DNA of 64,000 nt from an uncultured delta proteobacterium (GTDB taxonomy: Bacteria > Desulfobacterota > Syntrophorhabdia > Syntrophorhabdales > WCHB1-27). Below, one piece after another: positions 15,167 to 17,777 of the stretch. The position numbers and the translations under genes are program-made. Position 1 is the first letter of the stretch. Each line of letters begins with the position of its first letter. The notes under the pieces were generated by a model. It worked only from the letters and a program-made list of their open reading frames with translations. It did no database searches and was not told the origin of the DNA. Location of the stretch: assembly GCA_963810935.1 (NCBI GenBank), contig CAWEPK010000007.1:128001-192000 (forward strand). The letters are read 5' to 3'.

Positions 15167-16978
15167 ATGGCGATGACCGGCAGCGGCAACGCATTTCATC
15201 CTCGAAGGATCAAGCGCATCTGGCGCGGGACCCTTATAGGCATCCTGATAGGGGTCGTTTCCGGCTTCGGGGCCATCGTTTTCAATTTCCTCCTCCAGAC
15301 CTCGACGCGTTTTTTCATGGAAGACCTGATCCGGTTCATACTTCCCGCGAGCCGGGCGGACGTCTTCTTCCTAGGCGTGCCGCTTGTGCGGTGGGTGGCT
15401 ATTGCGTTCCCTGCCATCGGCGGCCTCATCGCCGGGCTGATCGTCTTCAACTTCGCGCCGGAGGCCGAGGGGCACGGCACCGACGCCATGGTCGACAGCT
15501 TCCACCGGAAGAAGGGCGTCATCCGCAGGAGGGTCCCGATAATCAAGACCATAGCGTCGGCTATCACCATAGGCTCGGGCGGATCGGCGGGAAAAGAGGG
15601 CCCCATTGCGCAGATCGGCGCGGGCTTCGGGTCGTTCCTGGCGTCTGTCCTGAAGGTGGACGACAGGGAGCGCCGCACGATGCTCCTTGCCGGGGCAGCG
15701 GGAGGGATCGGCGCCATCTTCAAGGCCCCGCTCGGGGCCGCACTTTTCGCGACGGAAGTGCTCTACCGCAAGGAGGCCTTCGAGTTCGAGGCCATCATCC
15801 CGTGCATACTTTCTTCCATCGTGGCCTTCACGGTCTATACTTTTTTTAACGGCAGCGAGACGGTCTTCCACGTCCCTGCTCTAGCCATCGCCACGCCTGC
15901 CCAGCTTCCGTTCTACGCGGTGCTGGGCGTGCTCTGCGCGCTTATAGGCCTTCCTTACGTCAGGTTCTTTTATGGACTGCGCGACAGGTTCTTCAGGCGG
16001 CTCGACATGCCCCGCTCGCTCAAGCCCGCTGTCGGCGGCCTCGTGGTCGGGCTTATCGCCGTCTATCTCCCCCAGGTGCTGGGCGGCGGCTATTCATGGA
16101 TGCAGGCGGCCATCGACGGCCGGATGGCCGTCAATGTCATGGCCGCCCTCGTCTTCGCCAAGATCGTCGCCACGTCGTTCACCATAAGCTCCGGAGGCAG
16201 CGGCGGCGTCTTCGCCCCCTCCCTGTTCATAGGCTCCATGCTCGGGGGCGCCTTCGGCATCACCTGCCATACGTTTTTTCCGCATATAGTGACCGAGCCT
16301 TCGGCGTTCGTAATCGTAGGCATGGGCGGTTTCTTCGCGGGGGTGGCCAAGGTGCCGATAGCGGCCCTCATCATGGTTGCGGAGATGACCGGAGGCTACA
16401 GTCTCATCGTCCCCATGATGATTGTCTCGTCGCTTGCGTATCTCCTGCTGGGGAATGTTTCCCTGTACGAAAAACAGGTGGCCGCAAGGGTCGATTCCCC
16501 CGCCCACATGGGCGACTTTGCCGTCGATATCATGGACCACCTGCGGGTGAGGGACGCAGTCGCGGGCGGCCGGAAGTTCGACACGCTCCCGGAGGATATG
16601 CCCTTCGAGCAAATCCTTACGCTCATGCTCGGCTCCAGCCAGCAGGATTTCCCTGTAGTGGACAAAAACGACAAGCTTACGGGCATCATCTCGATGACCG
16701 ACCTGCGGGAGGCGATGGCCGATAGAGTTGCCCACAGCCGCCTTTCCGCCCGCGACATCTCCATGACGACCGGGGTCATGGCTGTGAAGATGGACGATAC
16801 CCTCAATGAGGCCCTGCGCGCACTCGCCGTCCTCGACGTCAGGGAGCTTCCGGTTGTGGACGAAGACGACCCCGGAAAGGTCATCGCCCTCGTAGGCCGC
16901 AAAGAAATCACCGGCGCGTACCACAGCCGCATGGAAGCCCTCAAGAACCCGTCCCACCACCAACAGCCCGCCCCGTAA
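15167..16978 (+). CDS. ClC family chloride channel/antiporter with CBS pair
   Basis: AEGHGTD, GGSAGKEGP and GGSGGVFAPSL motifs; C-terminal CBS domains (FPVVD, LPVVD). Confidence 0.95.
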   Translation: MAMTGSGNAFHPRRIKRIWRGTLIGILIGVVSGFGAIVFNFLLQTSTRFFMEDLIRFILPASRADVFFLGVPLVRWVAIAFPAIGGLIAGLIVFNFAPEAEGHGTDAMVDSFHRKKGVIRRRVPIIKTIASAITIGSGGSAGKEGPIAQIGAGFGSFLASVLKVDDRERRTMLLAGAAGGIGAIFKAPLGAALFATEVLYRKEAFEFEAIIPCILSSIVAFTVYTFFNGSETVFHVPALAIATPAQLPFYAVLGVLCALIGLPYVRFFYGLRDRFFRRLDMPRSLKPAVGGLVVGLIAVYLPQVLGGGYSWMQAAIDGRMAVNVMAALVFAKIVATSFTISSGGSGGVFAPSLFIGSMLGGAFGITCHTFFPHIVTEPSAFVIVGMGGFFAGVAKVPIAALIMVAEMTGGYSLIVPMMIVSSLAYLLLGNVSLYEKQVAARVDSPAHMGDFAVDIMDHLRVRDAVAGGRKFDTLPEDMPFEQILTLMLGSSQQDFPVVDKNDKLTGIISMTDLREAMADRVAHSRLSARDISMTTGVMAVKMDDTLNEALRALAVLDVRELPVVDEDDPGKVIALVGRKEITGAYHSRMEALKNPSHHQQPAP

Positions 16979-17265
16979 ACGGCAGGCCAAGCGCACTTGG
17001 AAACTTTGCCCCTACCCGGAAGCGTACGACACCCGTTCCTACGCGCATAAAGGCTCCACTCCCCACCATCGTAAGGCTCCGCCTCGCTTGATGTGCGTGG
17101 CGTAGCACGAGCAAGGAAGATCGAGCACGCACACCATCCTTCCAGGACCGCTATGCTACGCCAACGATGGTTAGCGGTCGTTCCACCACATGCGCTTAAG
17201 GAAGGGTGTCGTACGCTTCCGAACCGGGGTGGGTTGGCCAAATGGGCTTGGCATGCCGTTAACGG
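16973..17265. ncRNA. Candidate structured RNA or MITE-like element (unassigned)
   Basis: Nested long-range inverted repeats: 16973-16992/17246-17265 (18/20), 17017-17034/17204-17221 (18/18), plus several perfect 8-10-bp helices. See findings. Confidence 0.55.
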
Positions 17266-17274
17266 CGATAGCCA

Positions 17275-17325
17275 TTGACATCCACCGCCCGCGCCCTTAA
17301 ACTAAATAGAAACCATTTCTATCTA
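17275..17325 (+). promoter_or_regulatory. Sigma-70 promoter with overlapping Zur box
   Basis: TTGACA(17275)-N17-TAAACT(17298); 23-bp palindrome TAAATAGAAA-CCA-TTTCTATCTA (17303-17325) directly upstream of the Fur-family gene and znu operon. Confidence 0.8.
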
Positions 17326-17336
17326 AGCAGGGACAC

Positions 17337-17777
17337 ATGCCGGATGACAACGACTTCGACGCGCTGTTGAGAGGCCTCGGCCTCAAGGTCACCCCCCGGC
17401 GCCTCGCCGTCCTCTCGGTCATGTCCGGCGCATCCGTTTTTCTCTCGCCCGAAGAAATCTGGAAAAAGGTCCGCAGGCGCGCAGGCAGCGTCGGCCTGCC
17501 CACCGTCTACCGCATCCTCGAAGAGCTTGCGTCCGGCGGGGTCGTCACGCGCGTGCTCCACGACAACCGCCAGCTTTACTATTACCTTTGCACGAACCCG
17601 CGCCATCACCACCATTTCGTCTGCCTCTCCTGCCACAAGGTCGAGGACGTCGACCTGTGCGCCCTCGACGCGCTGGAGCGCGAGGTGGAACAGCGCATTC
17701 AGGGCGCCCTTGTCTCGCACGTCCTCCAGTTGCAGGGCCTCTGCCGCGATTGCTGCGAAAGGAGGGAAAAGGCTTGA
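17337..17777 (+). CDS. zur: Fur family regulator, probably zinc uptake regulator
   Basis: GLKVTPRR, GLPTVYRIL, HHHHFVCLSC and GLCRDC; heads the Zn ABC operon. Confidence 0.85.
   Translation: MPDDNDFDALLRGLGLKVTPRRLAVLSVMSGASVFLSPEEIWKKVRRRAGSVGLPTVYRILEELASGGVVTRVLHDNRQLYYYLCTNPRHHHHFVCLSCHKVEDVDLCALDALEREVEQRIQGALVSHVLQLQGLCRDCCERREKA

What the first reader, a model, noticed from the sequence alone, without database searches (positions are those of the whole stretch)
16973..17265. ~290-nt intergenic element folding into a long rod with a multi-way interlocking (pseudoknot/kissing-loop or switch) core
Seen in sequence, outer helices: 16973-16992/17246-17265 (18/20), a G-U-rich helix 17002-17012/17226-17235, a perfect 18 bp 17017-17034/17204-17221, 17036-17040/17199-17203 and 17043-17048/17190-17195. 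The core has four perfect pairings that cannot all be nested: ACCATCGT 17065-72/17164-71; TGGCGTAGCA 17098-107/17154-63; TGTGCGTG 17092-99/17126-33; GACCGCTA 17146-53/17172-79. The 18-nt loop of the last hairpin consists exactly of the partners of the first two. AAGGCTCC is directly repeated (17050, 17073). The element fills the gap from the ClC stop codon to the -35 of the zur promoter. Inference: a structured ncRNA, ribozyme-like or switch RNA, or a non-autonomous mobile element. I cannot match it to tRNA, 6S, SRP, RNase P, tmRNA or a riboswitch that I recognise. Wobble pairs mildly favour the + strand.
Basis: partly seen in the sequence, partly recalled or inferred. Interest (0 to 1): 0.75.

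Follow-up and report, generated by a model that had tools for sequence, protein, structure and literature searches.

The report
Folded rod hitchhiking in mini-transposons
This is a slightly decayed 273-base mini-transposon with ISAs1-type ends, carrying a T-shaped rod that keeps its base pairing on one strand across a whole bacterial order and likely folds as single-stranded DNA; it is not a switch for the neighbouring zinc genes.

Summary
The helices are in the sequence, but the reading changes. The element is window 16983-17255, a non-autonomous element (MITE) with ISAs1-family ends inside a 10-bp target duplication. Full ISAs1 elements in relatives have the same ends.

The interior is a separate module of about 170 nt. 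It is multi-copy in 25 of 96 genomes of the order and in 0 of 150 others sampled from the phylum. Its nested rod, topped by a three-way junction, covaries strongly. The two extra 'pseudoknot/switch' helices do not. Tandem G·A loops and GNA triloops lie on the minus strand, which points to folded single-stranded DNA; RNA is not excluded.

The same module also sits inside TA-flanked ends, and without recognisable ends. It is not tied to zur, to gene orientation or to any neighbouring gene. No Rfam match and no mobilising enzyme for the core were found. This scan noted look-alike repeats before on other DNA (e1-3090604, e1-4883461, e1-3984973). Verdict: new variant of a known kind.

The parts
16973..16982 (.). 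Left copy of the 10-bp target-site duplication; it contains the clc stop codon (16976-16978)
   Evidence: CCGTAAACGG vs CCGTTAACGG, 9 of 10; 18 of 43 ISAs1-wrapped copies show 9-10 of 10, against 0 of 43 control pairs
16983..17000 (+). Left ISAs1-type terminal inverted repeat
   Evidence: 15 of 18 identical to the end of a full ISAs1 element; metagenome contigs with other flanks join the window sequence at 16982-16983
17017..17034 (.). Outer stem, left arm (pairs with 17204-17221); sequence varies between subfamilies, pairing is kept
   Evidence: 18 of 18; helices 1-2
17034..17205 (-). Conserved passenger core: nested rod with purine-rich internal loops, a 3-4 nt bulge and a T-shaped three-way junction
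   Evidence: CM R1 hit (this copy was in the training set); covariation
17182..17184 (-). GGA strand of the GGA/GGA 3x3 loop (partner 17055-17057)
   Evidence: GGA/GGA in 12 of 20 copies and 19 of 53; nearly all others GNA/GNA
17178..17179 (-). GA strand of a tandem G·A loop (partner 17060-17061)
   Evidence: GA/GA in 19 of 20 and 40 of 53
17164..17171 (-).
   Evidence: 5 of 8 pairs show changes on both sides; 91% of cells paired
17152..17159 (-). Decayed loops in this copy: GTA for GGA/GAA at 17157-59 and TA for GA at 17152-53; these bases lie inside the two non-conserved alternative helices
   Evidence: column table, loop counts, per-copy pairing
17137..17147 (-). Short arm A of the junction, TCCT-GGA-AGGA (GNA triloop)
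17089..17136 (-). Arm B of the junction, an 11-bp stem with a variable loop (includes 17092-99/17126-33)
   Evidence: helix 9; helix 11
17204..17221 (.). Outer stem, right arm
17238..17255 (-). Right ISAs1-type terminal inverted repeat
   Evidence: 14 of 18 identical to the IS end
17256..17265 (.). Right copy of the target-site duplication (a perfect palindrome)
15167..16978 (+). Upstream gene: ClC-type chloride channel with CBS domains
   Evidence: best hits below the curated cut-offs
17275..17325 (+). Host promoter-like site (TTGACA-17-TAAACT) followed by an inverted repeat at 17303-17325 (likely Fur/Zur box); lies outside the element
   Evidence: similar sequences upstream of the same gene in relatives without the element
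17337..17777 (+). Fur-family regulator, likely Zur, followed by metal ABC transporter genes
   Evidence: the Zur assignment is inferred from the neighbours

Best explanation
This is a non-autonomous element with ISAs1-type ends and a 10-bp target duplication, likely inserted by an ISAs1 transposase acting in trans, and it carries an older passenger rod whose pairing is conserved on one strand and which likely folds as single-stranded DNA. SHOWN: the ends, the duplication, the shared ends with full ISAs1 elements, the nested covarying fold, its strand, and its presence in several wrappers and in none. INFERRED: a DDE transposase needs only the ends, so the conserved fold must be selected in another step. 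The loop types suit DNA better than RNA. The most likely step is that the folded strand is itself copied or moved, REPIN-like, by a single-strand-DNA enzyme not found here (HUH/Y1 type is my best guess), and that it lands in or is captured by IS ends, which then spread it further. The window copy is probably inert now: its ends have drifted, two loops have decayed, and no ISAs1 gene was found in its assembly.
For: Ends and duplication. Of 9 full ISAs1 copies with both flanks, 7 have a 10-bp and 2 a 9-bp duplication; the transposase is NF033564 at 446 bits, cut-off 70. The interior has no similarity to the IS interior (best E 0.58). Fold: 84.9% of cells paired vs 74.7±0.6 shuffled, 37 of 66 pairs with changes on both sides, 0 of 500 shuffles as high, slid controls 33-44% (plain MAFFT alignment); 44 of 46 pairs in 53 copies (alignment fitted to the model). 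Strand: GA/GA loops in 40 of 53 at two places, G·T 109 vs A·C 47. Loops: of 106 hairpins scored, 35 GNA, 12 GNRA and 6 GNYA on the folded strand, against 1, 4 and 0 on the other. GNA/GNNA mini-hairpins are very stable in DNA and an RNA counterpart much less so (PMC13037366, passages). Wrappers among 112 loci: ISAs1 at both ends 43, at one end 22; TA-flanked type at both 15, at one 14; neither or truncated 18. A longer-armed relative is hit full-length by the model in 11 of 14 loci and has no direct repeat of 5 bp or more at the stem foot in 36 of 36 copies. The folded strand has no fixed sense to genes: the downstream ORF is on the same strand in 30, opposite in 27 and absent in 6 of 63 loci.
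Against: No enzyme for the core was found. Of 74 Y1 and IS630 loci only 2 held a short-arm hit and 1 a partial long-arm hit, and of these only L211 lies close to the transposase gene. One of 80 neighbouring ORFs scanned is a transposase, an IS200 that sits in an adjacent different repeat. Tandem G·A and GGA/GAA loops are also common in RNA (recalled), 12 loops are GNRA, and 53 of the 106 loops were of other types. Copies are related, so counts are not independent events. Energy models do not separate the strands as DNA, and in this copy the minimum-energy fold uses one of the non-conserved helices. There is no lagging-strand bias: flank GC skew is positive in 25 and negative in 38 loci. The bare copies could be wrappers decayed past recognition, and my stem-foot calls were rough. 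No full IS with the TA-flanked ends was found.
Confidence: 0.55

Rival explanations
1. Same ISAs1 MITE, but the passenger works as RNA: a multi-copy structured RNA made by read-through or its own promoter, kept because it stabilises transcripts or because it is spread through an RNA step.
For: The covariation and strand asymmetry fit RNA equally. As RNA the minus strand folds better (z -9.3 vs -7.7). There are 12 GNRA loops. The long-armed class has two variable loops of near-constant length between invariant flanks.
Against: GNA triloops (GAA, GCA, GGA) interchange and outnumber GNRA 35 to 12. Orientation to genes is mixed. A -10-like hexamer upstream was found in 2 of 36 bare copies against 4 of 36 in each control (crude stem ends). 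There is no Rfam hit on the element. In the window the folded strand is antisense to clc and zur.
Confidence: 0.27
2. The rod is a single-strand priming or protein-loading signal (ssi/sso- or Streptomyces-telomere-like). It has no mobility of its own, is moved only by IS ends, and is kept because it helps complementary-strand synthesis or repair.
For: GNA/GNNA mini-hairpins occur at phage G4 priming sites and in ssiA (PMC13037366, passages). G:A-closed hairpins in a 'rabbit ear' fold bind Tap in Streptomyces telomeres (PMC4513846, passages). The same loop types occur here.
Against: No match in plasmids or phages, and 0 pattern hits in viral contigs. No strand bias with GC skew. Bare multi-copy relatives need some other means of spreading.
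Confidence: 0.12
3. It is a cis-acting switch, pseudoknot or ribozyme that controls the zur-zinc transporter operon.
For: Four perfect, mutually exclusive helices exist in this copy, and it lies 10 bp upstream of a promoter-like site.
Against: The alternative helices do not covary. The element lies upstream of the -35 box, outside the zur transcript. It is absent from 18 other zur loci. Neighbours of other copies are unrelated.
Confidence: 0.03
4. It is a neutral, decayed inverted duplication with no selected structure.
For: Inverted repeats tend to be homogenised by template switching (recalled), and the window copy is decayed.
Against: The unpaired loops are among the most conserved positions and are purine-rich on one strand only. 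Repair of a palindrome would remove such mismatches. Cores only 45-65% identical keep the same loops.
Confidence: 0.03

Closest known systems
Type II MITEs of an IS family; here ISAs1 (NCBIfam NF033564)
   Same: Similarity to the parent IS is confined to the terminal repeats (definition in PMC10969869, passages; tested). It has a 9-10 bp target duplication, intergenic sites and multiple copies.
   Different: The interior is not free filler: it is a covarying, strand-specific module shared with other end types and with bare copies. That review does not mention ISAs1 (0 occurrences).
REPINs / REP-RAYT systems (PMC3116915, passages)
   Same: Short non-autonomous intergenic hairpins with compensatory changes, predicted to fold as ssDNA or mRNA, often inserted in or next to other repeats.
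   Different: No conserved terminal 16-mer or REP doublet: here the middle is conserved and the outer stem varies. No RAYT gene has the core beside it. It is larger, with a three-way junction.
Streptomyces typical telomere 3' overhang and parvovirus 'rabbit ear' ends (PMC4513846, passages)
   Same: Two short hairpins on a stem, with G:A-closed loops, in single-stranded DNA.
   Different: This element is internal and dispersed. No terminal protein or Tap-type gene was sought or seen beside it. The likeness is of fold only.
bcr1-3 repeats of the Bacillus cereus group (PMC6199540, passages)
   Same: Lineage-restricted dispersed repeats of similar kind, with secondary structure and an unresolved mode of spread.
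   Different: bcr mobility is linked to a TTTAT duplication; no shared IS ends are described in those passages. No sequence comparison with bcr1 was run.

Membership tests
ISAs1-family MITE | Terminal inverted repeats shared with an autonomous ISAs1 element | tested here: met
   15 of 18 and 14 of 18 in the window copy; identical in other copies
ISAs1-family MITE | Target duplication of the parent's length | tested here: met
   9 of 10 in the window; 18 of 43 copies at 9-10 of 10 vs 0 of 43 controls; parent 9-10 bp
ISAs1-family MITE | No transposase gene; multiple dispersed copies | tested here: met
   273 bp; 2 wrapped copies in this genome plus 1 bare core
ISAs1-family MITE | Cognate transposase available in trans | tested here: inconclusive
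   Not found in this 93% complete assembly; present in G001 of the same genus
ISAs1-family MITE | Empty site or observed transposition | tested here: inconclusive
   clc is not next to zur in the relatives fetched; no joint across the element in 4 runs
REPIN (RAYT-dependent) | Two inverted, highly conserved REPs at the ends | tested here: not met
   The outer stem varies between subfamilies; the core is what is conserved
REPIN (RAYT-dependent) | Copies clustered beside a RAYT gene | tested here: not met
   48 Y1 loci from 9 genomes scanned with both profiles: one full and two partial hits, none flanking a RAYT
REPIN (RAYT-dependent) | Cleavage of the folded ssDNA by the Y1 enzyme | not testable with these tools
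   needs an in vitro assay
Known Rfam RNA (riboswitch, ribozyme, 6S, SRP and others) | Match to a covariance model | tested here: not met
   No hit on the window element at E up to 10; 1 weak hit (22 bits, gathering 100) in 20 loci; 0 hits in 14 long-arm loci
Cis-regulatory switch | Conserved alternative pairings and a fixed position and sense upstream of related genes | tested here: not met
IS110 bridge-RNA-like guide (long-arm class) | Variable loops match the insertion site | tested here: not met
   The longest match to own flanks (means 5.1-5.9 nt) equals that to other copies' flanks (5.4-5.7), 39 copies
IS630-family MITE (TA-flanked wrapper) | Ends shared with an autonomous IS630 | tested here: inconclusive
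   TA flanks seen; none of 26 IS630 loci had these ends; the IS630 label is recalled

The most novel reading that the evidence does not exclude
The core is the founding member of an undescribed class of mobile modules: T-shaped, G·A-zippered single-stranded-DNA rods with no fixed end sequence. They spread through an unknown ssDNA recombinase and repeatedly colonise the mini-transposons of unrelated IS families, giving a two-storey parasitism. The long-armed form, with two variable loops of fixed length, may carry specificity information.
Probability: 0.25. Interest if true: 0.75.

Novelty: new variant of a known kind. Interest (0 to 1): 0.45.

Why it matters
MITE interiors are usually treated as filler between two ends. 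Here the interior is the conserved part and the ends are exchangeable. If it folds as DNA, it is a natural large ssDNA structure with more than 100 distinct covarying examples, few of which are known, and it points to an unfound enzyme or DNA transaction. For this locus it means the feature says nothing about zinc regulation.

Tried and rejected
Pseudoknot/switch: no covariation. Rfam: nothing. Plasmids and phages, distant BLAST: only chance fragments at E 2 or more. Viral contigs: 0 hits for the short-arm pattern; 3 for the long-arm pattern, all without the rest of the element by eye.

Recurrent neighbour gene: no protein family recurred in more than 3 of 53 loci. Of 174 flanking ORFs from 96 loci I scanned 80 in Pfam; they were unrelated and 1 was a transposase. 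Y1/RAYT association: not found. Parent of the TA-flanked ends: not among IS630 hits. The ISAzo13 search rang in no genome and in no control, so it shows nothing.

Inverted long-arm pairs in G010 flank housekeeping genes, not a transposase. Bridge-RNA-like matching of loops to flanks: no excess. Own promoter or terminator: no -10 excess, and no terminator-like site in the window region. Replichore bias: none clear. Empty site: none. No RNA holder was listed among sequencing runs; this is no evidence on expression.

The tree of 39 cores on 166 columns mixes wrappers within one subtype, but support is modest (0.85-0.96) and no clade test was run. No second, broader covariance model was obtained, so searches outside the order rest on R1, which scored only 18 candidates per genome, and on one exact pattern (0 of 401).

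Literature: 8 searches listed no paper describing this element; none of the 10 listed names Syntrophorhabdus. PMC6429828 mentions motifs that appear to act as structured DNAs in a supplementary figure that I did not see.

Full report
Observation. Rfam has no hit on it. It lies between a ClC-type channel gene and a Fur-family gene followed by metal ABC genes.

It is a dispersed repeat. The same genome holds a 91% identical copy (C12) and a 72% core-only copy (C15). BLAST found matches in 10 of 61 genomes. A covariance model built from 22 cores found multiple copies in 25 of 96 genomes of the order and none in 150 other genomes sampled from the phylum (strict filters, 18 candidates scored per genome). 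An exact pattern gave 24 stretches in the species-level genome collection, with titles naming Syntrophorhabdales, Syntrophorhabdaceae or unclassified deltaproteobacteria among others. It gave 68 stretches in metagenomes, 66 of which the model confirmed, and none in viral contigs.

Outer layer. Intact copies begin and end with an 18-bp inverted repeat. That motif occurs in 16 of 22 genomes of the family, against 2 control matches in all. It also bounds elements of about 1.25 kb whose protein is an ISAs1 transposase. Of 9 such elements with both flanks, 7 have a 10-bp and 2 a 9-bp duplication. Among 43 cores with both ends, 18 have a 10-bp duplication at 9-10 of 10, against 0 of 43 controls; several others have a 9-bp repeat that this test does not count. 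In the window the ends match 15 of 18 and 14 of 18 and the duplication 9 of 10. So the element is 16983-17255, and the outermost 'helix' is a near-palindromic target plus the two ends. Metagenome contigs with other flanks join at 16982-16983. The interior has no similarity to the IS interior, which is the type II MITE pattern (PMC10969869, passages). No ISAs1 gene was found in this assembly.

Inner layer. On a plain alignment of 20 copies a fully nested structure pairs in 84.9% of cells, with changes on both sides in 37 of 66 pairs; 0 of 500 shuffles reach this and slid controls give 33-44%. The structure was drawn from these sequences and the copies are related, so this overstates significance. 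On 53 more diverse copies fitted to the model, 44 of 46 pairs change on both sides. The two helices that would make a pseudoknot or switch do no better than shuffles. They reach 10 of 10 and 8 of 8 only in the window copy, where two otherwise conserved G·A loop positions read T. The fold is a long stem with GNA/GNA and GA/GA internal loops and a 3-4 nt bulge, capped by a junction in which a short arm A stacks directly on arm B (no linker in 52 of 53).

Which molecule. The mismatches are purine-purine on the minus strand and G·T outnumbers A·C 109 to 47, so the minus strand is the folded one. A crude scan of the arm A region scored 106 hairpins: 35 GNA, 12 GNRA, 6 GNYA and 53 others, against 1, 4 and 0 of the first three types on the opposite strand. 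GNA/GNNA mini-hairpins are extraordinarily stable in DNA, an RNA counterpart was much less stable, and they occur at phage and plasmid priming sites (PMC13037366, passages). GGA-containing sheared G:A duplexes are known DNA structures (PMC6061790, passages). The folded strand has no fixed sense to flanking ORFs or to GC skew. I put about 2 to 1 on DNA over RNA; nothing here tests it directly.

The core is not bound to ISAs1. In the other large family of the order it sits inside TA-flanked ends of different sequence, whose parent was not found. One copy has a third end type (L121), and many, including C15 of this genome, show none. A longer-armed class is multi-copy in 6 of 6 genomes of one genus. 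It keeps the same stem and junction, and the short-arm model hits it full-length in 11 of 14 loci, though by sequence profile alone the link is weak (best E 0.002). It shows no direct repeat of 5 bp or more at the stem foot in 36 copies. A small tree mixes wrappers within one subtype, with modest support. Cores are often interrupted or part-replaced by other hairpin repeats.

No regulatory link. The promoter-like site and box upstream of the Fur-family gene are kept in relatives that lack the element, and 0 of 18 other such loci hold the core at E below 0.1. Neighbours of other copies are unrelated.

Mechanism. Arrival at this site by ISAs1 transposition is strongly supported by the ends and the duplication, although the event itself is inferred. 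The conserved one-strand fold needs a second selective step. I commit to spread of the folded strand as ssDNA by an unfound enzyme, REPIN-like in working though not a REPIN by membership; that last step is the weakest. No Y1 gene was found with the core as its flanking repeat. The rivals are a multi-copy structured RNA and a priming signal.

Prior notes of this scan describe look-alike repeats in other genomes. They are unchecked and are not counted as support; one gave the bcr1 lead. Eight literature searches listed no description of this element. Of the papers cited I read passages only. Verdict: a known kind of element with an undescribed, exchangeable structured passenger; interest 0.45.

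Noticed in passing
L035:151-3251 (G009:C57): A 3.1-kb cassette with the same ISAs1 ends and a perfect 10-bp duplication carries aldehyde-dehydrogenase-like and short-chain-dehydrogenase-like ORFs (names read from the sequence, not scanned) and no transposase.
   Followed up: no
L038:130-395, L039:137-412, L040:155-402: ISAs1-ended MITEs with other structured interiors; L039 scores weakly with the core model (E 0.0016).
   Followed up: partly
L335-L340, L351-L370 (G010, G016, G020): The long-armed class has two variable loops of near-constant length (about 23-26 nt) between invariant flanks, and often occurs as pairs of two subtypes. The loops do not match their own flanks.
   Followed up: partly
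L211 (G000:C12 near 368500-369300) and L208 (G000:C8): Two of five near-identical IS200-type elements in this genome are inserted in the same GA-rich REP-like repeat; at C12 that repeat lies next to the sister MITE.
   Followed up: partly
L171-L178, L181-L186 (G088, G089, G042, G079): TA-flanked MITEs of 83-714 bp are mosaics of several hairpin repeats, some joined at shared short motifs; one holds an IS insertion (L180).
   Followed up: no
L037, L041, L042, L052: Short derivatives of 71-104 bp with ISAs1 ends and the core missing; two keep remnants of the outer stem.
   Followed up: no
window 16973-16982: The clc stop codon lies inside the left target copy, at the single base that differs between the two copies.
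   Followed up: no
G000:C12:105054 and G000:C17:73275-76810: Lone or degenerate ISAs1-type ends elsewhere in this genome.
   Followed up: partly
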